Source: Candidatus Omnitrophota bacterium
GTDB taxonomy: Bacteria; Omnitrophota; Gorgyraeia; Gygaellales; Profunditerraquicolaceae
NCBI GenBank assembly: GCA_028715785.1
Contig: JAQURC010000006.1
Location: forward strand, 21,630-85,629
Reading direction: 5' to 3'
Length of the DNA stretch: 64,000 nt
The translations under genes and the position numbers were made by a program. How positions within the stretch are numbered: the first letter of the stretch is position 1; every line of letters begins with the position of its first letter. This document shows positions 976-45,348 of this stretch, one piece after another. A model generated the notes under the pieces. It was not told the origin of the DNA. It ran no database searches and saw only the letters and a list, made by a program, of their open reading frames with translations.

Positions 976-996
976 ACTAATAGCTCCGGGAAGACA

Positions 997-25703: not shown

Positions 25704-26396
25704 ATGAAAGAAAAAATATTAATCGTCGAGGATGAAAGAGATATCATTAAGATGCTTGAGTATAACCTTAAGAAGGAGGGTTTTAAGGTTATTAGCGCCG
25801 GTGACGGTGAGGATGCTTTGGACCTGGCGGTGCGCGGGCAGCCGGACCTTATTTTGCTGGATTTGATGCTTCCGGGAATGGACGGCCTGGAGGTATGCAA
25901 GGCCTTAAAAAAAGAAAGCAAGGCCGCAGCTATACCGATAATTATGCTTACGGCCAAAGGCCAGGAATCGGATAAAGTGGTCGGTTTAGAATTAGGCGCG
26001 GATGATTATATGACCAAGCCGTTTAGCGTGCGCGAACTGATCGCCCGTATCAAGGCGGTCCTGCGCCGGGTAGCTGAAAAAGAAAAACTTCCGGAGATAT
26101 TCCAAGCCGGGGATTTAAAAATAGATTTTGCCAAAATATCCGTAACGGTCAAGGATAAGCCGGTTGAGTTAACGGCCAAGGAGTTTGAGCTTTTAAGGAC
26201 TTTGCTTGCCGCCAAAGGCAGGGTCTTATCGCGGGATTATCTATTAGACACAATTTGGGGTTTTGATCATGCGATGGAGATCCAGACGCGCACAGTCGAT
26301 GTGCATATCCGCACCCTGCGTAAAAAACTAAAAAACGCATCCAAATATATTCTAACAGTGAAAAATTACGGTTACCGTTTTGAGGTAGAGGGATAA
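25704..26396 (+). CDS. phoB: OmpR/PhoB-family response regulator
   Basis: Receiver (LLDLMLPGMDG, TAKG, MTKPF) plus winged-helix output (TVDVHIRTLRKKL, VKNYGYRF). Adjacent to a PhoR-like kinase and the pst genes. Confidence 0.75.
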   Translation: MKEKILIVEDERDIIKMLEYNLKKEGFKVISAGDGEDALDLAVRGQPDLILLDLMLPGMDGLEVCKALKKESKAAAIPIIMLTAKGQESDKVVGLELGADDYMTKPFSVRELIARIKAVLRRVAEKEKLPEIFQAGDLKIDFAKISVTVKDKPVELTAKEFELLRTLLAAKGRVLSRDYLLDTIWGFDHAMEIQTRTVDVHIRTLRKKLKNASKYILTVKNYGYRFEVEG

Positions 26397-26399
26397 AAA

Positions 26400-27509
26400 T
26401 TGTTCAATTCCCGCCTAAAGAAAAAAATATCCGAGCTGGATTCCGAACTGGAAATATTCAAGCAGCGCATCGACCTTTTAGAAAATGAGAACAACCGCAT
26501 ACATGCCATATTAAACAGTATGGTTGAGGGGGTAATCGCGGTAGATAAAGACACGCGTGTTCTTTGGCTTAATCCAACAGCCGAAAATATTTTTAATATC
26601 TCCCAAAAGAACGCGCAAGGTAAGATTTTTCTAGAGGTATTCCCTAACAATGATATTGCTGATGTAATTGCCTTGGTCTTAAAAGGCAAAGAACCCGTTT
26701 CTAAAGAGCTGGCTCTTATTTGGCCGGTACAAAAAGTATTCCAGGTGAATGCCTCCCCGATTTTTGAATCCAAAGTAACCAGCGGCTGCCTTTTAGTCAT
26801 CCACGATATTACCGAGATCAGGCGCCTTGAGACGATGCGCCGGGATTTTGTGGCCAATGTTTCGCACGAGTTGAAAACGCCGCTTACCTCGATAAAAGGT
26901 TTTGTGGAAACCCTGCTTGAGGGGGCCCTGGAGGACAAAGAAAACAGCGTCAATTTCCTCAAGATCATCAATACCCACGCTGACAGGCTGAATACTTTAA
27001 TTAATGACCTGCTGGATCTTTCGCATATCGAATCCAAAGAAATTGTGCTTAAAAAAGATAAATTTGATTTAGCCGGGCTTGTCAATGAGGTTATATCGGG
27101 ATTTAAGTCTCAGGCAAAAAAGAAAGGGATAGAGATCAATTCGGCATTACCCCAAGGCCTGGAAATTTTTGCCGATAAGAGCAAGATCGAACAAGTTTTC
27201 ACTAACCTGGTTAATAATGCAATAAAATACAATAAAGAGAACGGTTTTGTGCGTATTTATTCTGAGCAGCTTGCCGATAAAATAAAAATTGTTGTCGAAG
27301 ATTCCGGTTCAGGCATACCCGCAAAAGATATCCCCCGTATTTTTGAGCGCTTTTACCGCGTCGATAAAGCCCGCTCCCGCCAGCTTGGAGGCACCGGCCT
27401 TGGGCTTTCTATTGTTAAGCATATCATCGAACTGCATGGCGGTAATGTTGGAGTGGAAAGCACCGAAGGCTTAGGCTCCAAATTTTGGTTTATCCTGCCA
27501 ATTTCCTAA
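26400..27509 (+). CDS. phoR: PhoR-like sensor histidine kinase, soluble (no TM segment)
   Basis: TTG start. Coiled coil plus PAS, H-box FVANVSHELKTPLTSIKGF, HATPase motifs (NLVNNAIKY, DSGSGI, GGTGLGLSIV). Confidence 0.7.
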   Translation: MFNSRLKKKISELDSELEIFKQRIDLLENENNRIHAILNSMVEGVIAVDKDTRVLWLNPTAENIFNISQKNAQGKIFLEVFPNNDIADVIALVLKGKEPVSKELALIWPVQKVFQVNASPIFESKVTSGCLLVIHDITEIRRLETMRRDFVANVSHELKTPLTSIKGFVETLLEGALEDKENSVNFLKIINTHADRLNTLINDLLDLSHIESKEIVLKKDKFDLAGLVNEVISGFKSQAKKKGIEINSALPQGLEIFADKSKIEQVFTNLVNNAIKYNKENGFVRIYSEQLADKIKIVVEDSGSGIPAKDIPRIFERFYRVDKARSRQLGGTGLGLSIVKHIIELHGGNVGVESTEGLGSKFWFILPIS

Positions 27510-27543: not shown

Positions 27544-27597
27544 TTTACCCAGATTTTACCTCTCTTTGAAGTAGATTTAACCCCTTTATTTTATACT
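27544..27597 (+). promoter_or_regulatory. Pho-box array plus -10 element (R1)
   Basis: TTTACC-cagat-TTTACC-tctct-TTGAAG-tagat-TTAACC at 27544/27555/27566/27577 (11-bp phase). TATACT at 27592-27597 lies 9 nt after the last repeat. Confidence 0.6.
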
Positions 27598-27603
27598 TTG
27601 GCC

Positions 27604-28002
27604 ATGGTTAAGAAAATAATGATCGTAGAAGATGATAAAGATGTCAACGACCTTATTGCCTATAACCTGCGCAAAGAGGATTTTTATGTGGAGCAGGCTT
27701 TTGACGGCTTAAGTGCACAGGAGAGAATTAGAAAAGAAAGTTTTAATATTGTTATTCTCGATATTATGCTGCCCGGCATAGATGGGTTTGATATATGCAA
27801 ACTGATAAAAGATGACCCGCGGAATTTTCACACCTTTATTATAGTGGTGAGCGCTAAATCTCATGAACAGGATAAATTATATGCCCATCTTTTGGGGGCG
27901 GATTGTTATCTAAGCAAACCCTTCAATTTGGCAAGCTTATTAAGCACGGTAAGGGAAATAAGCGCCAACCTGGATAAAGAATTTTTAGTAAAAAGCAGAT
28001 AA
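27604..28002 (+). CDS. Single-domain response regulator (receiver only), PhoB-receiver paralogue
   Basis: IMIVEDDKDVNDLIAYNLRKEDF, LDIMLPGIDG, VSAKS, LSKPF. No output domain. The track start TTG 27598 is in frame; ATG 27604 is preferred. Confidence 0.8.
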   Translation: MVKKIMIVEDDKDVNDLIAYNLRKEDFYVEQAFDGLSAQERIRKESFNIVILDIMLPGIDGFDICKLIKDDPRNFHTFIIVVSAKSHEQDKLYAHLLGADCYLSKPFNLASLLSTVREISANLDKEFLVKSR

Positions 28003-28008
28003 ATTGAA

Positions 28009-28062
28009 TTTACACAGATTTTACCTGCGTTTAATTTAGAATCAATATGAAAAATGTAATAT
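28009..28062 (+). promoter_or_regulatory. Pho-box array plus -10 element (R2)
   Basis: TTTACA-cagat-TTTACC-tgcgt-TTAATT-tagaa-TCAATA at 28009/28020/28031/28042. TG-TAATAT at 28055-28062. Confidence 0.6.
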
Positions 28063-32829: not shown

Positions 32830-33507
32830 ATGGAAAGACATTTTGACGTAGAGTTGGCCGATTTAAAAAGTAGTATACTTCAGATGGGTGATTTAGTGGA
32901 GGAAGCGATTATTGATTCGGTGGAGGCGCTTAAACAGTTACGTAAAGATAAAGCTGCCAGGGTGATTGCCGAAGATAAGATTGTTGATGAGTGCGAACTT
33001 AAAATTGATGAAGAGTGTCTGGATCTTTTGGCTTTAAGGCAGCCGATGGCAGTGGACCTGCGTTTTATTACCATGGCGATGAAGATCTCTACTGATTTGG
33101 AAAGAATGGCGGATCTGGCTGTGGATATCTCCCAGCGGGTGTTGGAATTAGCAGATAAGCCGCTGCTTAAGCCGCTGGTAGATATACCAAAATTAACCCT
33201 GCTTGCGCAAAAGATGACTCGTGATGCCATAAGTTCATTTGTTAATAAAGACGCGGAATTAGCCAGGATAGTAATATCGAGCGATCGAGAAGCCGATAAC
33301 CTGCGTGATCTAGTTCAACAGGAGCTGCTCAATGATTATATCTCCAAAAATAAAACAACTATTCCACGCGCTATTCCTTTACTTTTGATTGCCCGCCATC
33401 TTGAGCGTATCTGCGATCACGCCACTAATATCGCCGAAGATGTAATCTATATGGTTGAGGCAAAGGTAGTAAAACACCACCTGGAAAAATTAGATGAAAA
33501 CAGTTGA
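32830..33507 (+). CDS. phoU: Phosphate signalling regulator PhoU (copy 1)
   Basis: Two PhoU repeats, with LERMADLAVDI and LERICDHATNIAEDVIYM. Confidence 0.95.
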   Translation: MERHFDVELADLKSSILQMGDLVEEAIIDSVEALKQLRKDKAARVIAEDKIVDECELKIDEECLDLLALRQPMAVDLRFITMAMKISTDLERMADLAVDISQRVLELADKPLLKPLVDIPKLTLLAQKMTRDAISSFVNKDAELARIVISSDREADNLRDLVQQELLNDYISKNKTTIPRAIPLLLIARHLERICDHATNIAEDVIYMVEAKVVKHHLEKLDENS

Positions 33508-33569
33508 TTTAAGATGGTTGCTGCAATATTATAATGTCGCGTTGTATTTTAAAAGGAGATACTTTTAGC

Positions 33570-34001
33570 ATGGATAAGAAAAAAGTTTTATTTGTTTGCG
33601 TGCATAACTCGGCTCGTTCGCAAATGGCCGAAGCGTTTTTAAAACAGATGGCTGGTGATAGATTTGAGGTGGAGAGCGCGGGCCTGGAGCCTGGCAAGTT
33701 AAATCCCACAGTTGTCGAGGTGATGAAAGAGGTAGGCATCGATATTTCACAGAACAAGACTAAGAGTGTGTTTGATTTCTACAAACAGGGTAAACGATAT
33801 GATTATGTTGTGACTGTGTGCGCTGAATCGCAAGCGGAAAAGTGTCCTATTTTTCCCGGGACAGCAGTCACACAAAGAATGCATTGGGGTTTTGATGACC
33901 CCTCGAGTTTTCAGGGGGGCCAGGATGAGAGAATGAAGAAAATCCGCCAGGTTAGAGATAAAATTAAACGCCGGATTATGGAATGGATTAATGAAAGATA
34001 G
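33570..34001 (+). CDS. arsC: Arsenate reductase, LMW-PTP/thioredoxin-coupled type
   Basis: CVHNSARS (CX5R P-loop) and the downstream Cys pair VCAESQAEKCP. AAAGGAG RBS before Met 33570. Confidence 0.8.
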   Translation: MDKKKVLFVCVHNSARSQMAEAFLKQMAGDRFEVESAGLEPGKLNPTVVEVMKEVGIDISQNKTKSVFDFYKQGKRYDYVVTVCAESQAEKCPIFPGTAVTQRMHWGFDDPSSFQGGQDERMKKIRQVRDKIKRRIMEWINER

Positions 34002-34875
34002 CCGGTGCAAAGTATTTTGCTTGCCTGTTATTATCCGCCCCCGTTTACTATCAGTTATTTTAATGGTATTAGCTTTATCCTTGAATACAGTTGTTCAGGG
34101 TTCCTTTGCCCAAGGTGCCGATTCTACTTATCGCAAAGGTATAGAATACGCTTCCGAAGGAAGATTCCCGGAGGCTGCGGATTGGTTTCAAGATAACCTA
34201 AAAAACAATAAATCAGATTCTACTTCACTTAGTTCCCTTATCGTTATTAAGGATTTAAATGACGGTAAAATTACCGATGTGTATGCCAAGTCTTTTTTTA
34301 CAGGATTGAATTTTCTACAAAACGGTAATATAGATGATGGGCTTAAGGAGCTCCAGAAGGCTATAGAATTTAATCCAGGCTATCCTAAGCCGTATAATGT
34401 CATTGGTGTGGTTTATGCTTCAGTTGGGGATAAATCCAAAGCCATTGATTATTTCCAAAAAGCCATAGAAATAAATCCTCAATATAGCCAGGCATGTTTT
34501 AACCTAGCCGCGTTGTATCAATCATCAGCCCAGCCGGAAGATGCCCTTAAGTATTATGAGAAAGTAATATCTTTGGATCCAAATTCTTTCGAAGCAATAA
34601 TTAATATGGCCGCAATTTATGCTTTACTTGGGAAATACTCCGAAGCGATTAGGTATTATCAAAATGCCATCGGGTTGGATGGGAATAACCCCGAACTGTA
34701 TTATAACCTCGCCCTATCTTATTTTATGTCTGATCAATTTAGAAAGTTTAAAGAAAATCTTCTTAAATCCCAAGAATTATATCAAGAAAAAGGTGATCGC
34801 CAGGGGCTTGAGAAAGTAGCAGTATATATGAATAAGATGAAAGAAATTGAAAGCAAGGCAAGGCATACCAAGTAA
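33991..34875 (+). CDS. Secreted TPR-repeat protein
   Basis: Signal peptide (LMVLALSLNTVVQGSFA) and several TPR units (AIEFNPGYPKPYNVIGVVY, AIEINPQYSQACFNLAALY ...). Confidence 0.6.
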   Translation: MKDSRCKVFCLPVIIRPRLLSVILMVLALSLNTVVQGSFAQGADSTYRKGIEYASEGRFPEAADWFQDNLKNNKSDSTSLSSLIVIKDLNDGKITDVYAKSFFTGLNFLQNGNIDDGLKELQKAIEFNPGYPKPYNVIGVVYASVGDKSKAIDYFQKAIEINPQYSQACFNLAALYQSSAQPEDALKYYEKVISLDPNSFEAIINMAAIYALLGKYSEAIRYYQNAIGLDGNNPELYYNLALSYFMSDQFRKFKENLLKSQELYQEKGDRQGLEKVAVYMNKMKEIESKARHTK

Positions 34876-34933
34876 GCAACTCCCCTCATTAGAACGGACA
34901 CTCCCTGATTGTTAATTGTAATTATGCGGTAAA

Positions 34934-34987
34934 TTTACAAAGAATTTACATTGCCTTAATAATTAGTTAACAAATTAATTGTATATT
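34934..34987 (+). promoter_or_regulatory. Pho-box array plus -10 element (R3)
   Basis: TTTACA-aagaa-TTTACA-ttgcc-TTAATA-attag-TTAACA at 34934/34945/34956/34967. TATATT at 34982-34987, 9 nt after the last repeat. Confidence 0.65.
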
Positions 34988-35021
34988 TTCTATGTAAGCA
35001 ATGGATTAAAAAGCCACGGAA

Positions 35022-35051
35022 GGGAAAGGTCTCGTAAAAGAGGCTTTTCCC
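35022..35051 (+). other. 5'-leader stem-loop upstream of 35077
   Basis: GGGAAAGGTCTC-gtaaaa-GAGGCTTTTCCC: a 12-bp stem (two G-U pairs) between the putative -10 and the start codon. Confidence 0.4.
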
Positions 35052-35076
35052 TTAAAATATCACCAGGGAATCAAAA

Positions 35077-35730
35077 ATGTTAAAAATAAGAGGCACTATT
35101 TTATCCATAATATTTATCCTTTTATTGTCGCGCTATGCCGTGGCCGAAGTAGTTACTCTCAAATCCGGCAAGGTTATTGACGGTGAAATTGTCGAAAGAA
35201 ATAAAGACTATGTTAAAGTTAAATATGATGGACAAGAGATTTATTATGAAAATAAATATATTAAAAATATAGAGGCACAAAATACGCCTGAGCCAGCCGT
35301 GAATGCGGAAAAAGAAAAAGCAGCGCAAGATCCAATGCCATCTTTTAAGAGCGCAATAGAGTTGGCTGCGGCAGGGAACTTCAGCCAGGCTAGGCAGGAA
35401 TTTCAAAAGCAGTTCAATGATATAAAAGGAGGGCTTAATATTCTTGATGATGTGGAGAAAGGCTTAATCAGTAAAGAGTATGCCATCTATTTATTTCAAG
35501 GGTCATTGCATATGATTAACGGGGAATATAATTTAGCCATAACATCTTTGGAAAAGGCCTGGGAAATTAATCCCAGGGATCCGGATCTAAATTATAACCT
35601 CGGTTCCGCTTATTTTTCCTTGGGGGAATATAAAGAATCAATCGTGTATTTGTCCGCTGTTTTAAAATTACAACCGCTTGATACCGAGGCCCAGGAGCTT
35701 CTAACCAGGGCTTATCATGGACAAAACTAA
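35077..35730 (+). CDS. Secreted protein with small N-terminal beta domain and TPR repeats
   Basis: Signal peptide ILSIIFILLLSRYAVA. TPR-like units (KAWEINPRDPDLNYNLGSAYFSLGEYKESI). Confidence 0.55.
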   Translation: MLKIRGTILSIIFILLLSRYAVAEVVTLKSGKVIDGEIVERNKDYVKVKYDGQEIYYENKYIKNIEAQNTPEPAVNAEKEKAAQDPMPSFKSAIELAAAGNFSQARQEFQKQFNDIKGGLNILDDVEKGLISKEYAIYLFQGSLHMINGEYNLAITSLEKAWEINPRDPDLNYNLGSAYFSLGEYKESIVYLSAVLKLQPLDTEAQELLTRAYHGQN

Positions 35731-35747
35731 ACAGCTAATTCCTCAAC

Positions 35748-38700
35748 ATGTTTAGAATGTTACGTAGAATCTTAGCCTGCCTGTTATGTTTTACGCTCCT
35801 CTTTGAACAGAGTGGTTTTGCCCAGTCTGTAGCGGAAGGCAATTTCTTAGGTTTTTTTGCCCCTCCTCACCTAAGCGGCGCCTTTAATCCCGCGCGTCTT
35901 CGCTATGTTGCATACGCCGAAAACATCAATAAATTTAAATTTTTATTTGACAAGGGTGATTTAAGAGATACTGACGATTTTACTTTAAAGGATTCAATCA
36001 GCGGACCTTTAAGTTATTTTTTGGTAGGGATAACTTTACCGAGCGAAAGTTTCTGGGTAAATCTGCGGCCGGATTCCCCGGCTAATGTTATCGATGATTT
36101 ACTGGCTGAAACTGATGTGGGCAAGATTTTCTTAGAAGCCGACTTGCAGTTAAAGAAGGAGTTTGCTCGTTACACTATGTCTGCCCAGCAGGGAAAAGAA
36201 TATCGGCTGCAAATCAGGAAAAAAGCCGAAGAGCTTTTTGGCTGCCTGGCGTTAGCTCCTTCAACTTTTACCCGCGTGTGGATTGACCCGGGTGAGATAA
36301 TCATCAGAGAAACTCAAAACAGCGCTTATATATATAAAGCAAATTTGAATGTGCTTACGGAGGAAGATTATTTTGGAAATTCCTTGGCCTCTGAAGATAA
36401 ACGGGTACAGGCTTTTAACGAATACGCGTCAGAACTTATAAAAAATTTAATTTTACCCAAGCTTATCAAGGAGGTGAATACCGGGAAAGAATTTGCCGCT
36501 TTAAGACAGGTTTATTATTCTTTTATTTTAGCTCAGTGGTTTAAAAATAGATTCTTGCAGCGTAACGGTCCAGCGCCCCGGTTTATCGATAGTAAAATTT
36601 TATCTGGTCTTAATTCTAAACATCCTTGGTCCAAGGAGGATTATTTTGCGCAATACCAGGAATCAGTACAAAGGGGGGACTACCGTTTTGATGAAAGAGA
36701 ACCTTTAGTTTTTGGAGAAATGGTAACTAGTTATTCTTGCGGCGGGGTAACTCTGGCATTAAAAATTCCGCCTTTTGCTTCTGCGGGGATGATCACTAGT
36801 GATGGGAGTATGACTTTAATAGGCGGAAGAGAAATAGAAGGTATTTTATCCCCTGACCGGGTTCTTGACCTAGGGTTAATCAGTGCAACTGCAAAATTTG
36901 ATCTAAAGGATCCGCTGGGTAATGTTATTGTTGAATCCGCAGCAAGTTCAGTTCGTAATGCTGCGTCAGCCGCTCCTGTTTCTGCTGCCAGCAGCGCGCA
37001 GGCGATGAATGACGGTGGAAGCCAGGTATTGAAAAAAGCAAAAGAAAAACTAAGTGTGTTAGAATTAAATAATCCGGCTTATTTAATTGCCGCGGAGCTA
37101 TTGCTTGGCGCTTTATTTATTTTTGGATTTTTTGTTGACGCCGGGAGTATGTTTTATAACTATGGGGTATTTGGACACTCCGTAATAGAAAGGTTTGTCG
37201 GTTATCCCTTGCCGAGTTTGAATGAGTATTTCCAGATTATCTCGCTTTCTTTTATTGCCTTTAACGCCTTGTTTGGATTATCAAAATCACCCGCGGTTAG
37301 GGCAAAAACCGGGCTTGCCCCCATTTTTTCAATACTTTCGGGATTTACGCTTTTTGGGATAGTGCCGCTGGCTATCAGCCTTACGGGTTTAGATAAATAT
37401 TTCAACTTGCAACTGGCGGTTTCTCCTTACGCGATGGAGGCCTTCGCGCTTTTGGGCGCGGCAGTTATAGGTCTATTGCCGGGGATGAATACTAAAAAGG
37501 AGAGCCCGGTTGATTTCCCTGAGAGTAGTCCGGATATAGAAAATAATACGGGTTGGGTGGAGCCTTCATGGGACGCTGTAGTAGAGGCGGCTTTGAATGA
37601 AGTAAACAAAAGGGCCGGTATTTCCGGCCTTACCGATGGAGCCTGTCTTGAGTTCCTGGAACAAACGCGCAAGCTCAGAAACCTCCTGCCTTTTGAATCG
37701 CATATCGTTACCGACAAAAGAGTCGCCTATTATCAGATTTACGACGAAGCTTTACAGTCTCTGTGCAAGAAACTCCAGGAAATTATGGATAGGCTGCGTG
37801 TAAGTACAGATGAGTTGGAACGAAAACGCCTGAATATCTACGCTTCTGAAATATTGGTTACTGCCGAATATTTTAATGAATGCCTGCGCGCTCTTAATGA
37901 GGTAGAGAATATCCCTCTTTCATCCGGTGACCGGCTTGACCGCAGCACCCCTTTTCGTAAAACAATCTCTTTTATTGTCGGGCATGCCTTTGGGTTTAAT
38001 AAGACATTTAACTATTCCAAGAAGGAGCTTATGAAGCAGCTAAAGGAGAAAATCATTCCGTTAGGCAATAGCTTGGATAACCTTTATTCGACAAAAGCCG
38101 ATATCGATAAGCAGGTTATTAAAAAGTGGGGGGAATGGATCCAAAACTGTTATGAAGGCAAAAGAAAAAGGCTGGGCGCCAGAAAAGGCTGGGTTTTTTG
38201 GAAAGAGATGTTCGGCCCGCTTGTCAGCCTGGTCTTGGTGGCTTCTGCACTTCCGATTGGCGGGAACATTGGTTTTCTAGAGTTCTTGTCCGCCCCTGAC
38301 TTTAGCGCGGGCGCTTTATGGAACGCAAAACCATTGGTAGGGCTTTCGCTTATTTTTTTGGGTTGGTATGTGTTACTGTTTCCCGGCAGAGGTAAAGCCG
38401 ACCAGACTTATAAAGAACACAATAAGACAATTGAGAAGTTAAAGCGGCAATTTAAAGACACTTTTTTCCTTATTGAGGGGGATTCAAGAAACAAGGCATT
38501 ACAATTTGCTTATGAGCAGTCTCTTGAAGCGGCTTGGAAAGAACTTTCTAGCGCCAGCGCAAGCGCGCAGGCAGTCATTGTTGTCACGGAACAGCCCAAA
38601 ATAATTCAGGATTTTCTTGAAAATTTGCGCGGTACGATATTACGAAAAGATGTCGAATTATTGGCTATTTCCGCCGAAAACAAAGGCAGTGCCGCGGCGT

Positions 38701-40094
38701 TTATCGAAGGTATGTTAGAAGCGCGGAAGTTTAAGAGAAGTATACTGTTGTTGGGAAGAGAGCAGGATATTGCGCGGTCATTGCAGCTTTTGCCGCTTCC
38801 GGCGTTTGAGCCGCTGGGGCGGCCATTGACCCCTTTGGAATTATCGCTGATTAATGGTTATCAGCTAACCCAGGCTTTAAAACAAAAAGGCCGTTGGGGT
38901 ACAGCGGTAGAAGTTACGCATAAATGCTTGATTCGTGATCTGAATTCATCATTGGAAGAAGTGCCTGACATGGAATTAACAACGGCATTGGTCGATATAG
39001 AGCAAATGGCCAGGCAGGATCTGGCATTAATTGTTGAAAATAACGGTAATGGCGGAAACGGTAAGCCAAAACCGTATGGGTGGATCCGCAAGATATTTAA
39101 ACATTTGAGTCTAGAAGACGTGAGAAATAAGACCGGGCCAAGGCATTTGCCCGCGTTTTCTGTTGACTGGCGCAATAAAGAAAAGCGGCAAATGCGCGTA
39201 TTCAGCGGAGAGATATTGGTAAGTATTCAGGATAAAGAACGCAATGAGTCTTTTATGTCGTTTCTTTCGCAAATGAAGGATTATATGGCTGAGCATTCCA
39301 AAGATAGTTTTCAACCCAATCTTACTACCCATTTTCTCGTTCCTCTGGTTATGCTTACTAATAACGAAGGAGCAGGGATTCACCGTTTTCGGGAGGGCCT
39401 GAATTTAAAAAATAAAGAGGATATTTTTTTAAAGGGGCTCTTCAATTTGTTTTGGCCTGAAGATGATACAGGGTATCACAGTAAATTAGCAGCTCTTCAA
39501 ATAGAAGCTCTTATACCCCATCAAAGTTCATTCTATACGCGTTTAGACGGCACTACGGATGCGGATGCGGTATTGAAACAACAATTAGGCGGCCTTTATA
39601 CTGAACCGCCTAACAAAGAAATTTTAACTTTACTGTACAGGGCTGCCCAAAACGAGGATACAGCCTCAATGCAACATGAATTAGACGGCGGGCATTCATC
39701 ATCCAATGTAATATCCTCCAGCCCGCAGAGAGTTGTAATTCCATCATTGGGAGCCGGCGTCGGCGGCATAGGTTTTTCTTCAATGAAAGTTGTCCTGAAC
39801 TACGATGATCTGTTGAAAATAGATGGGGAGTGGGGTCAAATTGAAAAGATGTTGGAGTCCGGAAACCTTCCCTCGATACCTTCGGTCACAAATTATGTGG
39901 AAACGGCGGTAAAAAATACTGATTCCGGTATGCAGTTATATAAAGCGATGGCCTGCGTTGCCGGTATCCTCAAACTGGAAGAAGAATTGGTAATCCCGGC
40001 GCAGATGGAAATTAAAAGGCTGTTGCTGGTGCTGGAAGAACATCTAAACCGGCAGGGCGGCCAAATGAATTCTAAGAATCTTGCTTTAAGGTAA
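35748..40094 (+). CDS. Giant (1448 aa) multi-pass membrane protein, unknown function
   Basis: Uninterrupted ORF. Signal peptide ending GFAQS, ~430-aa N-terminal exported domain, two TM clusters (~aa 445-590 and ~aa 820-880) around a helical soluble region, and a ~560-aa C-terminal domain. No motif I can assign securely. Confidence 0.5.
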   Translation: MFRMLRRILACLLCFTLLFEQSGFAQSVAEGNFLGFFAPPHLSGAFNPARLRYVAYAENINKFKFLFDKGDLRDTDDFTLKDSISGPLSYFLVGITLPSESFWVNLRPDSPANVIDDLLAETDVGKIFLEADLQLKKEFARYTMSAQQGKEYRLQIRKKAEELFGCLALAPSTFTRVWIDPGEIIIRETQNSAYIYKANLNVLTEEDYFGNSLASEDKRVQAFNEYASELIKNLILPKLIKEVNTGKEFAALRQVYYSFILAQWFKNRFLQRNGPAPRFIDSKILSGLNSKHPWSKEDYFAQYQESVQRGDYRFDEREPLVFGEMVTSYSCGGVTLALKIPPFASAGMITSDGSMTLIGGREIEGILSPDRVLDLGLISATAKFDLKDPLGNVIVESAASSVRNAASAAPVSAASSAQAMNDGGSQVLKKAKEKLSVLELNNPAYLIAAELLLGALFIFGFFVDAGSMFYNYGVFGHSVIERFVGYPLPSLNEYFQIISLSFIAFNALFGLSKSPAVRAKTGLAPIFSILSGFTLFGIVPLAISLTGLDKYFNLQLAVSPYAMEAFALLGAAVIGLLPGMNTKKESPVDFPESSPDIENNTGWVEPSWDAVVEAALNEVNKRAGISGLTDGACLEFLEQTRKLRNLLPFESHIVTDKRVAYYQIYDEALQSLCKKLQEIMDRLRVSTDELERKRLNIYASEILVTAEYFNECLRALNEVENIPLSSGDRLDRSTPFRKTISFIVGHAFGFNKTFNYSKKELMKQLKEKIIPLGNSLDNLYSTKADIDKQVIKKWGEWIQNCYEGKRKRLGARKGWVFWKEMFGPLVSLVLVASALPIGGNIGFLEFLSAPDFSAGALWNAKPLVGLSLIFLGWYVLLFPGRGKADQTYKEHNKTIEKLKRQFKDTFFLIEGDSRNKALQFAYEQSLEAAWKELSSASASAQAVIVVTEQPKIIQDFLENLRGTILRKDVELLAISAENKGSAAAFIEGMLEARKFKRSILLLGREQDIARSLQLLPLPAFEPLGRPLTPLELSLINGYQLTQALKQKGRWGTAVEVTHKCLIRDLNSSLEEVPDMELTTALVDIEQMARQDLALIVENNGNGGNGKPKPYGWIRKIFKHLSLEDVRNKTGPRHLPAFSVDWRNKEKRQMRVFSGEILVSIQDKERNESFMSFLSQMKDYMAEHSKDSFQPNLTTHFLVPLVMLTNNEGAGIHRFREGLNLKNKEDIFLKGLFNLFWPEDDTGYHSKLAALQIEALIPHQSSFYTRLDGTTDADAVLKQQLGGLYTEPPNKEILTLLYRAAQNEDTASMQHELDGGHSSSNVISSSPQRVVIPSLGAGVGGIGFSSMKVVLNYDDLLKIDGEWGQIEKMLESGNLPSIPSVTNYVETAVKNTDSGMQLYKAMACVAGILKLEEELVIPAQMEIKRLLLVLEEHLNRQGGQMNSKNLALR

Positions 40095-40109
40095 GGGGGC
40101 ATTTACGGC

Positions 40110-40385
40110 ATGAAAAATTACATTTTCAAAAATGATTTAAGGCGCAAGAATACAAAATTTCTTACAACAGCCAGCATGGTTTTAAAAACGTACGCTTGGT
40201 TTATTCTTATTTTAAGCGTATTGTCGGCAATATTGATAATGTCCGGGGTTTTAAGCAGCGTGCCGCCGTGGGCAGGCCTGGTTGTTTTATCCGCGTATAC
40301 ATTCTTCTTCTTTTTCTTCTACACCATAGCCGAAATTTCAGATTTATTGGTAGCGATCAAAGAGGCGTTACAAAGTAATTGTTGA
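40110..40385 (+). CDS. Small two-TM membrane protein
   Basis: AAGGGGG RBS. Two hydrophobic helices. Follows the giant gene after a 15-nt gap. Confidence 0.45.
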   Translation: MKNYIFKNDLRRKNTKFLTTASMVLKTYAWFILILSVLSAILIMSGVLSSVPPWAGLVVLSAYTFFFFFFYTIAEISDLLVAIKEALQSNC

Positions 40386-40483
40386 CTAAATCCCCGATTA
40401 ATTATTTACTTACTCATTAACATATCATATAATAATTCAGATTGTTTTACCCGCAATAATCTTTCCAAAGAAAGGTTAAAGAA

Positions 40484-41140
40484 ATGAATAAAACAGGCTT
40501 GGTGGCTATTGGTTTGATACTATTGTTATTAGCTAATGCCTATGCTTATGACGACGGTGATTTTCAGGTATGGAACACGGATGTCGAGGAAATCCAGCTT
40601 AAGAAAGATTTAAAGCTGGCCTTTGAGCAGGAGTTTCGCTGGGGGGATAACGCCAGTGAATTTTACTACCAGCATTATGATGTCGGATTAACCTATAACC
40701 TAAATAAATATTGGAGTGCCGGCGGTGGATACCGGCATGTGCTTAATAAAAGCAAAGATAAATTTTTGGTAGAAAACGAGCCTTATGTTACGGCCACTTT
40801 TGCCAGCCAATTTGCCGGATTTAAATATGATGACCGCAGCCGGCTGGAATATAACCATTTTGATTATAAAGATGACACCTGGCGCTACCGCAATAAGCTT
40901 ACGGTAAAGGCCCCCTGGAAATTTACTAAATTAGAGATCCAGCCGTTTGCTGCCGATGAGATATTCATTCTTTTTGATGATGGCCAGAGGTTAAGTGAAA
41001 ACAGGACGACTGCGGGTTTGGCGATGAATATCGCCAAAAACCTAAAAGGTGAAGTTTATTATATGTTCAGAACCGTAAAAAGCGGACTGAAGTGGACGGA
41101 TACGAATGTATTGGGAACAAAACTAAAGTTAGTGTTTTAA
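40484..41140 (+). CDS. Outer-membrane beta-barrel protein (DUF2490-like)
   Basis: Signal peptide. DDGDFQVWN...EQEFRWGDN...YYQHYDVGLTY alternating pattern. Terminal LKLVF. Confidence 0.5.
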   Translation: MNKTGLVAIGLILLLLANAYAYDDGDFQVWNTDVEEIQLKKDLKLAFEQEFRWGDNASEFYYQHYDVGLTYNLNKYWSAGGGYRHVLNKSKDKFLVENEPYVTATFASQFAGFKYDDRSRLEYNHFDYKDDTWRYRNKLTVKAPWKFTKLEIQPFAADEIFILFDDGQRLSENRTTAGLAMNIAKNLKGEVYYMFRTVKSGLKWTDTNVLGTKLKLVF

Positions 41141-41142
41141 AT

Positions 41143-41186
41143 TTTACTTAGATTTAACATGGATTTAGAGTAAATACAAGTATAAT
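41143..41186 (+). promoter_or_regulatory. Pho-box array plus -10 element (R4)
   Basis: TTTACT-tagat-TTAACA-tggat-TTAGAG at 41143/41154/41165. TATAAT at 41181-41186, 10 nt after the third repeat. Confidence 0.55.
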
Positions 41187-41220
41187 AAAGGTAATATAAA
41201 TATGAGCAAATGGAGGAGAA

Positions 41221-42075
41221 ATGTTTAAGAAAGGTTTGTTTATTTTAGCTTTGCTTATCTTTACGGTTCCGGCGTTTGCCGGAAAAGATAAAAATTCCAT
41301 CCAGATTAAAGGCTCGGATACTATGGTCAATCTCGGACAGGCCTGGGCAGAGAAATATATGGAAAAAAATCCCGGGGATTTTGTGGCGGTAACCGGCGGC
41401 GGCTCCGGGACAGGATTGTCCAGTTTAATCAGCGGAACCTGCGATATCGCGATGAGCTCAAGAAATATCAAGGATAAAGAGATTTCTTTGGCCGAACAAA
41501 AAGGGATTGATCCTTTTGAGATAAAAGTTGCTTTGGATGGTTTGGCGGTAGTCGTCAATCCGGCTAATCCGGTGAGCAAGCTCACAGTGGAACAGCTGGC
41601 CGGAATCTTTACCGGCAGTATCACTAACTGGAAAGAAGTGGGGGGAAAAGACGGGAAGATCGTCATTCTTTCGCGCGAAGTAAATTCCGGGACCCACGTT
41701 TATTTTAAAGAGCACGTATTAAGGAAAGGCAATGCCAACGGCAGAGAGGAATTTGCTCCCGGAGCCTTGTTATTATCTTCTTCGCAGGCGATTGCCGATG
41801 AAGTTGCCGGTAATTCCGCAACGATAGGTTATTATGGGATGGGTTATATCTCAAGCAAGCAAAAGCCCGTTGCTATTGCTAAAGACGCTAAATCCGAATA
41901 CGTTAATCCCAGTATCGAGAATGTTCTAAGCGGTAAATACCCCATATCCAGGCCGCTTTTTCTATATACTAATGGAGAGCCGCAAGGACTGATTAGGAAA
42001 TTCGTTGATTATGCCCTTTCTAAAGAAGGTCAGGATATTGTAGTCAAGACGGACTTTGTTCCCATTAAAAAATAA
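41221..42075 (+). CDS. pstS: Phosphate ABC transporter substrate-binding protein PstS (copy 2)
   Basis: GSDTMVNLGQA...TGGGSGTGLSSLISGTCDIAMSSRNIK...LSREVNSGT. Confidence 0.9.
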   Translation: MFKKGLFILALLIFTVPAFAGKDKNSIQIKGSDTMVNLGQAWAEKYMEKNPGDFVAVTGGGSGTGLSSLISGTCDIAMSSRNIKDKEISLAEQKGIDPFEIKVALDGLAVVVNPANPVSKLTVEQLAGIFTGSITNWKEVGGKDGKIVILSREVNSGTHVYFKEHVLRKGNANGREEFAPGALLLSSSQAIADEVAGNSATIGYYGMGYISSKQKPVAIAKDAKSEYVNPSIENVLSGKYPISRPLFLYTNGEPQGLIRKFVDYALSKEGQDIVVKTDFVPIKK

Positions 42076-43005: not shown

Positions 43006-43853
43006 TGCGTAATACGCAAAGATCACAAAAGATCGCCTTCTTTTTTCTTTTCCTGGCTACGCTTTTAATTGTTGTGCCGGTTGGCTTGATTGTTGTGATT
43101 ATTATCCAGAAAGGCCTGCCGGCGATTAACTGGCAATTTTTAGCGGATATTCCGCGCCAGGGGATGCGCGCCGGAGGGATTTTCCCGGCGATCATCGGGA
43201 CAATTTATCTTGTTTTGGGCGCGATAATCTTTGCCCTGCCCATAGGCCTGCTGGCGGCAATTTATTTAAGTGAATACGCAAAGGACAATATTCTTAACCG
43301 CATAATCAAGCTGGCAATCGTGAATCTCTCCGGTGTGCCTTCGGTTGTCTATGGTTTATTTGGTTTGGCGCTTTTTGTGGTTTTCTTAAAATTTGGCGCA
43401 TCGATTTTATCCGGTTCGCTCACTTTAGGGATAATGATCCTGCCGATAATCATTACTACCTCCCGGGAGGCTTTGGAAAGCGTGCCGCATTCGTTTCGCG
43501 AGGTAAGCTTGTCTTTGGGGGCAAGTAAATGGCAAACCATAAGGCATATAGTTTTACCCAATGCCGTACCCGGAATTCTAACCGGGACCATTCTGGGATT
43601 AGGCCGCGCAGCGGGAGAAACCGCCCCGATTCTTTTTACTGTGGCGGCTTTTTATCTGCCGCAGCTGCCTAAATCTATTTTTGATCAGGCGATGGCGCTG
43701 CCGTATCACTTGTATGTAATTTCAACGCAGGTGCCTAATGTGGATGAAAAAATACGTTATGGCACGGCTTTAGTCCTGTTATCTTTGGTTTTGTTTATGA
43801 ATTTAGTGGCCATAATCATCCGTTATAATTTCAGAAAGAAGAAGAAATGGTAA
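43005..43853 (+). CDS. pstA: Phosphate ABC transporter permease PstA (copy 2)
   Basis: Met at 43005 (TAATG overlap with pstC). REALESVPHSFREVSLSLGASKWQT, ALPYHLYVI. The longer track ORF (42696) is an out-of-frame overlap. Confidence 0.9.
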   Translation: MRNTQRSQKIAFFFLFLATLLIVVPVGLIVVIIIQKGLPAINWQFLADIPRQGMRAGGIFPAIIGTIYLVLGAIIFALPIGLLAAIYLSEYAKDNILNRIIKLAIVNLSGVPSVVYGLFGLALFVVFLKFGASILSGSLTLGIMILPIIITTSREALESVPHSFREVSLSLGASKWQTIRHIVLPNAVPGILTGTILGLGRAAGETAPILFTVAAFYLPQLPKSIFDQAMALPYHLYVISTQVPNVDEKIRYGTALVLLSLVLFMNLVAIIIRYNFRKKKKW

Positions 43854-44593
43854 AACTTAACGCCAGGAACCTGAATATCTGGTTTGGCCAGATCCACGCT
43901 TTAAAAAGCGTGAACATCGAGGTAGAGGCCAATGAGATTTTAAGCGTAATCGGCCCGTCCAACAGCGGAAAGACCAGTTTCCTGCGCATGCTTAATCGTC
44001 TGAATGACCTGTATCCGGGTTTTAAAATGAGCGGCAGCTTAGAGTTTGATCAAGAGGATATCAGAAAAATAGATATTGAGGTTTTGCGCAAAAAAGTAGG
44101 CATGGTTTTTGCTTTACCCCTGCCCCTGCCTTTATCGATTTTTGAAAATGTGGCCTATGGGGTCAGGATGCACGGAGAAAATAACCGCGGCCGGATCTCC
44201 GGGATTGTCGAGCGTTCCTTAAAGCAAGCCTATCTCTGGGATGAGGTCAAGGACAGGTTGGATGTCTCGGCTTTTAAATTATCCGGCGGACAGCAGCAGC
44301 GTCTTTGCATTGCCCGGACCCTGGCGGTTGAGCCGGAGGTCATCTTATTCGATGAGCCTTGTTCCGGGCTTGACCCGATTTCAACCGCCAAAGTTGAAGA
44401 GGCAATGTTAAAGCTGAAAAAAGACTATACAATAGTTTTAGTAACTAACAATGTAAAGCAGGCGGCCAGGGTGGGGGACCGCACGGCTTTTTTTCTGTCA
44501 GGAGAGCTGATAGAATTGGACAAAACAGAAAAGATGTTTACGGCGCCCAGCGACCAGCGTACCGATGGCTATATTAGAGGAAAGTTTGGATAA
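43847..44593 (+). CDS. pstB: PstB-like ATPase with degenerate Q-loop and H-loop (copy 2a)
   Basis: Walker [19 protein letters not shown] replaces VFQKPNPFP. Signature LSGGQQQRL is intact. Walker [17 protein letters not shown] replaces VTHN. Confidence 0.85.
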
Positions 44594-45348
44594 TGGCGGA
44601 TATTTTAGTAAATAATTTAAATTTATGGTACGCTGATTTCCAGGCGCTGATAGGCGTAAAAGCGCATTTTACCCAAAAGCAGATTACCGCTATGATTGGG
44701 CCATCAGGGTGCGGTAAGTCGACTTTACTGCGGGTGTTTAACCGGATGAATGACCTTATCGAAGGGGTGCGCGTAGAAGGGGAAGTAATCATTGACGCCG
44801 AAAATATAATTTCCGATAAAACGGATTTAGTGGGCTTGCGTAAAAAAGTAGGCATGGTCTTTCAGCGGCCCAACCCCTTCCCGTTATCTATTTATGAGAA
44901 TATTGTTTTTGGCCAGAAGGTGCATGCCGAAGGCTTAACTAAGCTAAAACTCAATGAGATAGTTGAGGATAGCTTAAAATCCGTTCTTTTGTGGGATGAA
45001 CTTAAAGATAAGCTGAATAAATCCGCGCTGAGTTTGTCGCTTGAACAGAAGCAGCGGCTTTGCATTGCCAGGCTGATCGCGGTTAAGCCTGAGATTTTGC
45101 TGATGGATGAGCCCTGTTCGACCCTTGACCCGCAGGCAACCAGCCGTATCGAAGAATTAATGCGTGAACTTAAGAATAACTATACTATAATAATTGTTAC
45201 GCACAATATGCAGCAGGCAGCGCGCGTTTCGGACCAAACAGGTTTTATGCTTTTAGGCGAATTGGTTGAATTTGGTAAAACAGAGGATATTTTTACCCGG
45301 CCAAAAGATAAGCGGACAGAAGATTATATTACCGGCCGATACGGTTAG
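44593..45348 (+). CDS. pstB: PstB-like ATPase with degenerate ABC signature (copy 2b)
   Basis: Walker [11 protein letters not shown]-loop VFQRPNPFP, Walker [13 protein letters not shown] and H-loop VTHN are all canonical. The signature is LSLEQKQRL instead of LSGGQ. Confidence 0.85.

What the first reader, a model, noticed from the sequence alone, without database searches (positions are those of the whole stretch)
34934..40385. Operon encoding a TPR protein, a 1448-aa multi-pass membrane protein and a small membrane protein, sitting behind the best Pho box in the window
**Promoter.** Four hexamers in exact 11-bp phase (TTTACA, TTTACA, TTAATA, TTAACA at 34934-34972) are followed 9 nt later by TATATT. 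The same architecture precedes the porin-pst operon and pstS2.

**Downstream genes.**
- A secreted TPR protein.
- A 1448-aa protein with a signal peptide, a ~430-aa exported domain, two TM clusters and a ~560-aa C-terminal domain.
- A two-TM peptide.

**Function.** I recognise none of the domains securely. A stretch at the start of the C-terminal domain (AVIVVTEQP...NKGSAAAFIEG) faintly recalls nucleotidyl-transferase or fucokinase-type N-termini, but this is a weak impression only. A giant envelope protein induced by phosphate starvation is not part of any described Pho regulon that I know.
Basis: partly seen in the sequence, partly recalled or inferred. Interest (0 to 1): 0.7.

Follow-up and report, generated by a model that had tools for sequence, protein, structure and literature searches.

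The report
Pho-controlled Omnitrophota membrane protein operon
An uncultivated Omnitrophota bacterium keeps a three-gene operon between its two phosphate-uptake operons, behind a textbook phosphate-starvation promoter; its 1448-residue membrane protein has a nucleotide-sugar-enzyme fold and belongs to a large, undescribed, phylum-specific family of modular proteins.

Summary
Four TT(T/A)A(C/T)A hexamers at exact 11-bp spacing (34934-34972), 9 nt before TATATT, are unique in the window and match the B. subtilis-type Pho box. They precede three tightly spaced genes: a signal-peptide TPR protein, a 1448-aa protein and a 2-TM protein.

The Pho link is conserved. All eight loci with enough flank (this window and seven related contigs from other assemblies) place a homologue of the big protein inside pst/phoU/phoBR or ppk/ppx loci. 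It is usually behind the same hexamer architecture.

New finding: the leader, the ~310-aa N-domain (no PDB fold match) and a ~100-aa C-terminal GGIDF module are shared by more than 400 Omnitrophota proteins. Their middles carry dozens of unrelated cytoplasmic-type enzymes.

Unresolved: the canonical signal peptide and the positive-inside rule disagree on topology, and motif substitutions leave catalytic competence open.

Best reading: a Pho-regulon inner-membrane complex that makes or senses a nucleotide-activated metabolite. Expression and biochemistry are untested.

The parts
34934..34972 (+). Pho-box-like array: TTTACA, TTTACA, TTAATA, TTAACA at 11-bp phase, occupying the -35 position
   Evidence: Unique in the window. 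Matches the B. subtilis consensus of four TT(A/T/C)ACA repeats with 11-bp periodicity (PMC11870197).
34982..34987 (+). -10 hexamer TATATT, 9 nt after the last repeat
   Evidence: The same 9-nt spacing to TAnnnT is seen at 27544 and 28009 in the window and at the Pho-box-like arrays of L002, L005, L028, L029 and L032.
35018..35053 (+). 14-bp perfect hairpin in the predicted 5' untranslated region; role unknown
   Evidence: MFE -24.7 kcal/mol for 34990-35080, z -3.25. No Rfam match.
35077..35730 (+). Gene 1: 217-aa protein with a signal-peptide-like N-terminus, a small beta-rich N-domain and TPR repeats
   Evidence: Homologues lie beside the big gene in L002, L005, L029 and L032. TPR genes also flank it in L086 and L087.
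35748..35825 (+). Big protein, aa 1-26: family-specific leader (basic n-region, 12 uncharged residues, EQSGFA|Q)
   Evidence: Of 112 family members, 106 have exactly 12 uncharged residues followed by [EQ]Q.GFAQ.
35826..36767 (+). Big protein, aa 27-340: conserved N-domain of the Omnitrophota family (FWVNLRPD, AYIYKA, LRQVYYS, WFK motifs)
37080..37487 (+). Big protein, aa 445-580: first cluster of four hydrophobic transmembrane segments
37569..38153 (+). Big protein, aa 608-802: all-helical domain, first part of the cargo module
   Evidence: pLDDT 85-93. Conserved together with the following hairpin and alpha/beta domain in homologues.
38223..38387 (+). Big protein, aa 826-880: transmembrane hairpin with K/R-rich outer flanks
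38565..39602 (+). Big protein, aa 940-1285: alpha/beta domain with a sugar-1-phosphate nucleotidylyltransferase fold (closest to the FKP N-terminal half)
39762..40058 (+). Big protein, aa 1339-1437: family-wide C-terminal module (GGIGF here, GGIDFR in most members; then a helical ...IPS..RIKEYL...ILRLEEE segment)
   Evidence: present at the extreme C-terminus of 101 of 120 hits.
40110..40385 (+). Gene 3: 91-aa protein with two transmembrane segments
   Evidence: Homologues sit directly downstream of the big gene in L001 (73% identity) and L005 (41%).
25704..27509 (+). Context: PhoB-like response regulator (25704-26396) and PnpS/PhoR-like histidine kinase (26400-27509), the inferred regulators
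28009..28062 (+). Context: the same array plus -10 (TAATAT) in front of the Porin_5-pstSCAB-phoU operon

Best explanation
This is a phosphate-starvation (Pho regulon) operon of an Omnitrophota bacterium.

**Promoter.** Four direct repeats at 11-bp spacing sit where a -35 box would be, 9 nt upstream of TATATT. I infer that the phosphorylated PhoB-type regulator encoded 9 kb upstream binds them and recruits RNA polymerase, as at B. subtilis and E. coli Pho promoters.

**Products.** The transcript encodes a periplasmic TPR protein, a 1448-aa six-pass inner-membrane protein and a small 2-TM partner.

**The large protein is a mosaic.**
- A leader plus ~310-aa N-domain and a ~100-aa C-terminal GGI(D/G)F module are shared by hundreds of Omnitrophota proteins. 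Their fold is unknown. They are probably a common anchoring, sorting or assembly device.
- Between them lies a cargo made of a helical domain, a TM hairpin and a domain with the fold of sugar-1-phosphate nucleotidylyltransferases.

**Inferred action.** Under phosphate limitation the complex sits in the inner membrane beside the two Pst transporters, with the helical and nucleotidyltransferase-like domains on the cytoplasmic face. There it makes, or binds and reports, a nucleotide-activated sugar or related phospho-metabolite as part of a phosphate-sparing adjustment of the envelope or of phosphate homeostasis.

**Shown:** promoter architecture and its conservation, synteny, domain folds, family membership.
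**Inferred:** PhoB binding, induction, topology, chemistry.
For: **Promoter.**
- The array is unique and non-random.
- It has the same layout as the porin-pst promoter in this window.
- It matches the published B. subtilis Pho box (four TT(A/T/C)ACA repeats, 11-bp periodicity; PMC11870197).
- PhoB-like and PnpS/PhoR-like genes lie nearby.

**Conservation.**
- Homologues of the big protein sit in pho, pst or polyphosphate loci in 8 of 8 contexts with enough flank.
- L086 has the same order as the window: pstSCAB, LMWPc/PhoU, TPR, big gene, pstS2CAB, phoU2.
- Equivalent hexamer arrays lie upstream in L002, L005, L028, L029, L032 and L087.
- Only 3 of 80 paralogue loci carry such arrays, so Pho control is specific to this subfamily.

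**Operon.** Intergenic gaps are 17 and 15 nt. The small 2-TM and TPR partners are conserved.

**Topology.** K/R-rich flanks on the large-domain side of every TM pair, in this protein and nine homologues, place these domains in the cytoplasm.
Against: - No expression or binding data exist.
- The leader looks like a canonical Sec signal peptide. With an even number of TM segments, that would put all large domains outside the cytoplasm, where NTPs are absent.
- The nucleotidyltransferase link is fold-level only and rests on a predicted model. Pfam, NCBIfam and PDB sequence or profile searches find nothing.
- In this protein and its closest cargo relatives, the family's GSG motif reads GSA (aa 980-982). 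The position that aligns with the Mg-binding Asp136 of FKP reads His-Lys (aa 1058-1059) (the alignment is not significant). The domain may therefore not be a working enzyme.
- No substrate or pathway partner (such as a glycosyltransferase) is encoded in the operon.
Confidence: 0.5

Rival explanations
1. The leader is a working Sec signal peptide. The N-domain, helical domain and nucleotidyltransferase-like domain then all face the periplasm or cell surface. The protein would be an envelope scaffold or a binder and scavenger of external phosphorylated compounds (nucleotides, NDP-sugars), comparable to the exported phosphate-scavenging proteins of classical Pho regulons. Its partners are likewise extracytoplasmic.
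For: - The leader has a basic n-region (median 3 K/R), exactly 12 uncharged residues in 106 of 112 family members, and a G-F-A|Q site that fits the -3/-1 rule.
- Both TM clusters have an even number of segments, so all large domains share the side of the N-domain.
- Two preprints report that long Omnitrophota proteins with metabolic domains are predicted as signal peptide + TM or extracellular (10.64898/2026.06.07.730766; 10.1101/2023.11.21.568195).
- The TPR partner has a signal-peptide-like N-terminus.
Against: - The positive-inside rule contradicts it at every TM pair, in this protein and in nine homologues.
- The fold is that of NTP-using enzymes.
- Sister family members carry kinases, HATPase, GGDEF, radical SAM, GAPDH and PGK with no other TM segment. 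These need cytoplasmic cofactors.
- Several orthologues carry a winged-helix-like insert (weak).
Confidence: 0.25
2. The nucleotidyltransferase-like domain is a pseudoenzyme. The protein would be a membrane-tethered sensor or regulator of phosphate homeostasis, for example reporting a nucleotide or sugar-phosphate pool to the Pst/PhoU/PhoR machinery, rather than a biosynthetic enzyme.
For: - The Pho-linked clade (this protein, P0003, P0004, P0121, P0122) has GSA instead of GSG. It has His-Lys or His-Gln where the wider family mostly has Asp and where FKP has the Mg-binding Asp136 (catalytic residues from PMC11982464).
- The gene sits directly between two-component regulator genes and pst/phoU in L002, L005 and L087.
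- Eight relatives carry a ~90-aa insert whose best, sub-significant PDB profile hits include wHTH regulators (PF0095, PerR; E 0.15-0.4).
- Catalytically dead nucleotidyltransferase-fold regulators exist (GMPPA, eIF2B gamma/epsilon; my own knowledge).
Against:
- The Asp position varies even in the wider family.
- Lys1115, Gln1148, Gly1154, Asn1036-Gly1037 and Gly980 are nearly invariant, as expected for a conserved ligand site, which is compatible with catalysis.
- The window protein lacks the wHTH-like insert.
Confidence: 0.2
3. The hexamers are just an A+T-rich sigma-70-type promoter region. On this reading the position between two pst operons is an accident of gene order, and the operon is not phosphate-regulated.
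For: There are no expression data. TTTACA resembles a -35 box, and a simple scan also reads 34934 TTTACA-18-AATAAT as sigma-70-like. The region is A+T-rich.
Against: - The four-repeat pattern is not seen in shuffles.
- The identical repeat + 9 nt + -10 architecture recurs at pho-related promoters only, both in the window and in unrelated contigs whose intergenic sequences differ.
- Synteny with pst/pho/ppk is retained between proteins only 20-45% identical.
Confidence: 0.05

Closest known systems
PhoB/PhoP-activated promoters (Pho boxes), especially the B. subtilis type: four TT(A/T/C)ACA repeats with 11-bp periodicity
   Same: Four hexamers of that consensus at 11-bp phase replace the -35 element upstream of a good -10. 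The same architecture fronts the pst operon. PhoB-like and PhoR-like genes lie alongside (PMC11870197).
   Different: The organism is an uncultivated PVC-group bacterium in which no Pho box has been defined. Binding and induction are untested. The third and fourth repeats drift to TTAAKG/GTAACA in related genomes.
GDP-fucose pyrophosphorylase half of B. fragilis FKP (PDB 9iis/9iit) and other sugar-1-phosphate nucleotidylyltransferases (GMPPB, AGPase, RmlA, UGPase, PntC)
   Different: Identity is only 13%. There is no Pfam or profile match. The GxGTR-type signature is not recognisable. Here the FKP Asp136-equivalent reads Lys (non-significant alignment). The domain is embedded in a six-pass membrane protein, and there is no kinase half.
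Long and giant multi-domain proteins of Omnitrophota (West-Roberts et al. 2023 preprint; 2026 complete-genome preprint)
   Same: Same phylum. Both combine an N-terminal signal-peptide-like segment, scattered TM helices and cytoplasmic-type enzyme domains (methyltransferase, HATPase, GNAT, HD, PGM, radical SAM, glycolytic enzymes). Both raise the same localisation puzzle.
   Different: Those studies treat proteins of 10-147 kaa and classify by Pfam. Judging from term searches of their text, neither mentions the conserved leader, the ~310-aa N-domain, the C-terminal GGIDF module or any phosphate link. The family here is 0.8-2.5 kaa.
Modular secreted proteins with a conserved N-terminal delivery domain and variable cargo (two-partner-secretion TpsA proteins, polymorphic toxins): analogy only, from my own knowledge
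   Same: A conserved leader plus a ~300-aa N-terminal domain is followed by highly variable domains across many paralogues.
   Different: The N-domain is alpha/beta with no beta-helix and no PDB fold match. The C-terminus is also conserved. The cargo is housekeeping-type enzymes, not toxins. No transporter partner recurs next to the genes.

Membership tests
Pho regulon promoter (PhoB/PhoP-dependent) | Two or more direct repeats with 11-bp periodicity matching the Pho-box consensus | tested here: met
   Four repeats, with 23 of 24 positions fitting the scoring matrix T-T-[TAC]-A-[CA]-A, a relaxed form of TT(A/T/C)ACA. Unique in the window. Consensus from PMC11870197.
Pho regulon promoter (PhoB/PhoP-dependent) | Repeats take the place of the -35 element at a fixed distance from a -10 hexamer | tested here: met
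   9 nt to TATATT. The same spacing occurs at 27544 and 28009 in the window and at the arrays in L002, L005, L028, L029 and L032; it is 10 nt in L087.
Pho regulon promoter (PhoB/PhoP-dependent) | Cognate PhoB/PhoR-type two-component system in the genome | tested here: met
   Response regulator: best hit TIGR02154 PhoB, 264.5 bits (below the 296 cut-off). Kinase: NF046044 PnpS, 429 bits (above the 400 cut-off).
Pho regulon promoter (PhoB/PhoP-dependent) | Linkage and box conserved in related genomes | tested here: met
   8 of 8 contexts are linked to pho, pst or ppk.
Pho regulon promoter (PhoB/PhoP-dependent) | Binding of phosphorylated regulator and induction at low phosphate | not testable with these tools
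   Needs EMSA or footprinting and expression data.
Sugar-1-phosphate nucleotidylyltransferase / FKP-N (Pfam NTP_transferase, Fucokinase) | GT-A-like alpha/beta fold of NDP-sugar pyrophosphorylases | tested here: met
Sugar-1-phosphate nucleotidylyltransferase / FKP-N (Pfam NTP_transferase, Fucokinase) | Match to the family's sequence models | tested here: not met
   No Pfam or NCBIfam hit, even at E 10, for 20 family members. No PDB sequence or profile hit.
Sugar-1-phosphate nucleotidylyltransferase / FKP-N (Pfam NTP_transferase, Fucokinase) | Catalytic residues (FKP: Ser78, Arg79/80, Lys89, Asp136, Lys187, His272) | tested here: inconclusive
It puts Lys1059 opposite Asp136. The GS motif reads GSA. 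Lys1115 and Gln1148 are nearly invariant. Residue list from PMC11982464.
Sugar-1-phosphate nucleotidylyltransferase / FKP-N (Pfam NTP_transferase, Fucokinase) | Nucleotidyl transfer activity | not testable with these tools
   Needs a biochemical assay.
Unnamed Omnitrophota leader / N-domain / C-module family (defined here) | Leader: basic residues, 12 uncharged residues, then [EQ]Q.GFAQ | tested here: met
   The window protein reads MFRMLRR-ILACLLCFTLLF-EQSGFAQ. 106 of 112 members share the exact spacing.
Unnamed Omnitrophota leader / N-domain / C-module family (defined here) | ~310-aa N-domain with the FWVNLRPD, AYIYKA, LRQVYYS and WFK motifs | tested here: met
   40-68% identity to the 32 other sequences in alignment A1, with 44 invariant columns. 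432 loci in GTDB species representatives.
Unnamed Omnitrophota leader / N-domain / C-module family (defined here) | C-terminal GGIDFR + helical module at the extreme C-terminus | tested here: met
   Present at aa 1339-1437, with GGIGFS in place of GGIDFR. 101 of 120 hits carry it.
Sec-exported protein (cleavable signal peptide) | n/h/c regions and small residues at -3/-1 | tested here: met
   Three Arg, a 12-residue h-region and G-F-A|Q.
Sec-exported protein (cleavable signal peptide) | Topology of downstream TM segments consistent with an exported N-domain | tested here: not met
   The K/R distribution places the N-domain side of TM1 and both flanks of the TM5-6 hairpin in the cytoplasm, in this protein and nine homologues. 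No dedicated topology predictor was available.

The most novel reading that the evidence does not exclude
The near-invariant leader, the N-domain (no PDB fold match) and the C-terminal GGIDF module together form a phylum-specific protein-addressing or tethering system. It takes dozens of otherwise cytoplasmic enzymes (glycolytic enzymes, kinases, methyltransferases, nucleotidyltransferases) to one cellular destination: the membrane, an envelope compartment or a host cell. The Pho-linked member would be the version deployed under phosphate starvation. This would explain why signal-peptide and positive-inside predictions disagree, and why cytoplasmic-type enzymes keep being predicted as extracellular in Omnitrophota.
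Probability: 0.3. Interest if true: 0.85.

Novelty: new variant of a known kind. Interest (0 to 1): 0.62.

Why it matters
**For Pho regulons.** Described Pho regulons consist of transporters, phosphatases, polyphosphate enzymes and phosphate-sparing envelope pathways. This locus adds a conserved, large, uncharacterised membrane protein with a nucleotide-sugar-enzyme fold, wedged between two pst operons in an uncultivated phylum of ultra-small, possibly host-dependent bacteria. It gives a concrete and testable handle on how these cells respond to phosphate limitation.

**For Omnitrophota proteins.** The protein also exposes a family of more than 400 Omnitrophota proteins in which one leader, one N-domain with no PDB fold match and one C-terminal module bracket very different enzymes. 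That family makes an open question directly testable. Two preprints on Omnitrophota giant proteins ask whether the metabolic domains lie inside or outside the cell. These family members are small enough (about 1-2 kaa) to express and to map for leader cleavage.

Tried and rejected
- **Sequence models.** Pfam and NCBIfam scans of the big protein, the small protein and 16 homologues found nothing beyond TPR. Scanning 20 domain sequences at E up to 10 gave no weak nucleotidyltransferase hits.
- **PDB sequence searches.** phmmer and profile searches with the C-terminal half, the whole cargo alignment and the domain alignment gave only chance hits.
- **Word-index search.** A search with the cargo region returned nothing, not even the identical database protein, so it was uninformative. 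The exhaustive HMMER search replaced it.
- **FKP alignment.** I used it only as a lead.
- **wHTH-like insert.** In the PDB profile search the top-ranked hit was an unrelated aminopeptidase (E 0.056); wHTH regulators followed at E 0.15-0.4. None is significant.
- **Other large ORF.** The 1848-aa ORF at 967-6513 is unrelated.
- **Secretion partner.** A search for a recurrent secretion or processing partner beside 80 paralogue loci found only housekeeping neighbours: rsmI, glmS and gyrA.
- **RNA families.** Rfam found no RNA family in 33000-42000.
- **Promoter and terminator scan.** It gave counts no different from shuffles.


Full report
**Observation.** A four-hexamer TTHACA pattern at 11-bp spacing, allowing 3 mismatches, occurs once in the 64-kb window and never in 100 dinucleotide-preserving shuffles. 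The two-hexamer core is also unique (0.08 expected). With a looser position matrix the array scores 23 of 24, the highest in the window. Arrays followed at exactly 9 nt by TAnnnT occur three times, at 27544, 28009 and 34934. All three are on the + strand in intergenic DNA of the pho region; locally shuffled sequence expects 0.47. [quoted passage not shown] The pstS2 promoter is only partly alike: it has three hexamers, and its -10 lies one helical turn closer.

**Genes and setting.** Downstream lie three ORFs separated by 17 and 15 nt:
- 35077-35730: 217 aa, with a signal-peptide-like start and TPR repeats.
- 35748-40094: 1448 aa.
- 40110-40385: 91 aa, with two hydrophobic segments.

The surrounding genes, in order, are:
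- a PhoB-like regulator and a PnpS/PhoR-like kinase
- an orphan receiver
- Porin_5-pstSCAB-phoU
- an ArsC-type LMW phosphatase
- a TPR protein
- the operon
- a DUF2490 protein
- a second pstSCABB-phoU set

The organism is an Omnitrophota MAG: the big protein is identical to NCBI 'hypothetical protein PHP73_05735'.

They are not.
- P0003 (L002/L003) and P0004 (L005) sit between phoB/phoR-like genes and an OmpR-type regulator, Porin_5, pstSCAB, phoU and LMWPc.
- P0080 (L032) lies between phoU and a TPR gene followed by pstS-pstC.
- P0014 (L086, a 470-kb contig) reproduces the window's order exactly: pstSCAB, LMWPc, PhoU, TPR, big gene, pstS2CA, two pstB, phoU2.
- P0101 (L087, an 868-kb contig) follows ppx, ppk1, CHAD, phoB and phoR, and precedes TPR, a regulator, Porin_5, pstSCAB and phoU.
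- In L028 the gene is divergent from ppx-ppx-ppk1.
- L029 shares the gidA/Fer4/TPR flank.
- The contig of P0002 is too short to judge.

That makes eight of eight informative contexts, between proteins only 20-45% identical in the cargo. The four-repeat + 9-10 nt + TAnnnT architecture lies directly upstream of the gene, or of its small upstream companion, in L002, L005, L028, L029, L032 and L087. In L086 the gene simply continues the pst operon. Among 80 loci encoding paralogues of the N-domain, only L028, L029 and L032 have strong arrays. Phosphate control is therefore a property of this subfamily and not of the whole family. Binding and induction remain inferences.

**The large protein is a mosaic.** A database search returned at least 420 relatives, but almost all match only aa 1-340 (45-50% identity) and aa ~1340-1430. 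Their middles carry very different Pfam domains:
- MidA-type and other methyltransferases
- protein kinases, HATPase and GGDEF
- metallophosphoesterase, HD, Nudix and GNAT
- radical SAM and PPDK
- GAPDH, PGK, PGM, transaldolase, glucose-6-phosphate isomerase and FBPase
- M23 and M48 peptidases

(all)

*Leader.* It is almost invariant. 106 of 112 members have exactly 12 uncharged residues after a basic stretch, then [E/Q]-Q-x-G-F-A-Q.

*C-terminal module.* It reads S-S-P..., GGIDFR.LP, then helices with IPS..RIKEYL...C.ADILRLEEE, and ends 101 of the 120 hits. The window protein has GGIGFS.

*Distribution.* A pattern scan of GTDB species representatives found 432 loci. Nearly all are titled Omnitrophota, or come from MAGs with generic names, and the 80 loci listed include up to three from a single assembly. 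No other copy lies in this window. Term searches of two preprints on giant Omnitrophota proteins found no mention of these modules. Both preprints do note domain-poor N-terminal regions, signal peptide + TM predictions, and metabolic enzymes that come out as 'extracellular'.

**The cargo.** An exhaustive HMMER search with aa 585-1335 against 1.84 billion representatives found only 41 proteins. All are large. In some, the unit [helical domain - TM hairpin - alpha/beta domain] is repeated two to four times without the family leader or N-domain signatures. None has a Pfam domain in this region.

Foldseek independently ranked E. coli ADP-glucose pyrophosphorylase first (E 1.6e-3, probability 1.00). 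It is not confirmed at sequence level: profiles of the domain find nothing in the PDB or Pfam.

**Is it an enzyme?** In a 20-sequence domain alignment the nearly invariant positions are Gly980 (G-S motif), Asn1036-Gly1037, Gly1051, Lys1115, Gln1148, Gly1154 and Pro1199. That suggests a conserved ligand site. The window protein and its nearest cargo relatives (P0003, P0004, P0121, P0122) form a clade that differs in three ways:
- GSA replaces the wider family's GSG.
- A ~25-residue insert is missing.
- His-Lys or His-Gln (aa 1058-1059) stands where most others have Asp.

FKP Asp136 is a proposed Mg ligand (PMC11982464). Catalytic competence is therefore open.

**Topology conflict.** The leader meets every rule for a Sec signal peptide. 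Both TM clusters contain an even number of segments (4 and 2), so all large domains lie on the N-domain's side. Yet lysine and arginine are concentrated on the large-domain side of each TM pair. In the 15-residue flanks the counts are:

| Element | Outer flanks (K/R) | Connecting loop side (K/R) |
|---|---|---|
| TM5-6 hairpin | 3 and 4 | 0 and 1 |
| TM1 | 3 before | 0 after |

The same pattern holds in nine homologues with different TM arrangements. By the positive-inside rule (established knowledge), the N-domain end, the helical domain and the nucleotidyltransferase-like domain are all cytoplasmic. That also suits an NTP-binding fold and the cytoplasmic-type cargo of the sister proteins. 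I could not run a dedicated predictor, so the conflict stands. It is the same puzzle that both preprints raise.

**Partners.**
- The 2-TM protein recurs immediately downstream in L001 (73% identity) and L005 (41%).
- The TPR protein has homologues beside the big gene in L002 (two copies, one behind its own Pho-box-like array at 3513), L005, L029 and L032.
- A different small soluble protein accompanies the gene in L002 and L028.

**Conclusion.** The best-supported reading is a Pho-regulon operon conserved in Omnitrophota. It encodes an inner-membrane complex whose main subunit joins a family-wide leader/N-domain/C-module frame to a nucleotidyltransferase-fold cargo. What the cargo makes or senses is unknown. 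Three alternatives remain open: an extracytoplasmic location, a regulatory pseudoenzyme, and (unlikely) no phosphate control. The family frame itself is the most novel element, and the small size of this member makes it experimentally approachable.

Noticed in passing
window 27544-27597: A third Pho-box-like array (TTTACC, TTTACC, TTGAAG, TTAACC + 9 nt + TATACT) lies just before the orphan receiver-domain ORF at 27598-28002. Equivalent arrays precede the extra regulators in L002 (15183, 16033) and L005 (16389, 17185).
   Followed up: partly
window 35018-35053: A perfect 14-bp hairpin lies in the predicted 5' untranslated region of the operon (z -3.25 against shuffles). No T-run follows it and there is no Rfam match. 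It could affect mRNA stability or translation.
   Followed up: partly
window 40405-40433 and 41143-41186: A sigma-70-like TTTACT-17-TATAAT lies upstream of the DUF2490 gene. A three-hexamer variant of the Pho box, with TATAAT one turn closer, lies upstream of pstS2. The downstream genes may therefore have their own promoters rather than relying on read-through.
   Followed up: partly
window 33534-34875: An ArsC-type (thioredoxin) arsenate reductase / LMW phosphatase gene follows phoU. It overlaps by 11 nt a 294-aa TPR gene that ends the first pst operon. LMWPc next to phoU recurs in L005, L086 and L087. A 61%-identical TPR gene precedes the big-gene paralogue in L029.
   Followed up: partly
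P0002, P0003, P0004, P0014, P0121, P0122, P0126, P0127 (e.g. L002 about 13800-14100): Relatives carry a ~90-aa insert between the cargo and the C-module (..PRTT..RR.MIRDFF..EFTVRDIL...PSY.TVYRDLE.L..EGFL...NFYRLS). In a PDB profile search, wHTH regulators appear among the top hits, all sub-significant (E 0.15-0.4). The window protein lacks this insert.
   Followed up: partly
P0124, P0125, P0128, P0132, P0133, P0136, P0137, P0144, P0147: The unit [helical domain - TM hairpin - nucleotidyltransferase-like domain] is repeated two to four times in proteins of 2-5 kaa that lack the family leader and N-domain signatures. This suggests it is a mobile module of long Omnitrophota proteins.
   Followed up: partly
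L006-L085 (e.g. L053 234-5487): About 25 of the 80 paralogue loci share an rsmI / glmS / gyrA neighbourhood. At least one member of the N-domain family is therefore a positionally conserved orthologue in a housekeeping region.
   Followed up: no
L002 9564-9821; L028 5574-5762 (- strand): A small soluble protein (62-85 aa, shared ...W(M/L).(E/D)L...EK(Q)(V/A)WLWNS(L/M)V(E/A)M(A/K)KI...) lies next to the big gene behind a Pho-box-like array in two genomes. It is absent from the window.
   Followed up: no
window 967-6513: A second very large ORF (1848 aa) has no Pfam or NCBIfam hit and no similarity to the 1448-aa protein.
   Followed up: partly
window 43847-45348: The second pst operon carries two tandem pstB-type ATPase genes (248 and 251 aa). 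The same duplication is present in L086.
   Followed up: no
window 3-917: An ORF running off the window start matches only the C-terminal half of phosphoglycerate kinase (Pfam PGK positions 181-377). It has no GGIDF module, so it is not evidently a member of the family.
   Followed up: partly
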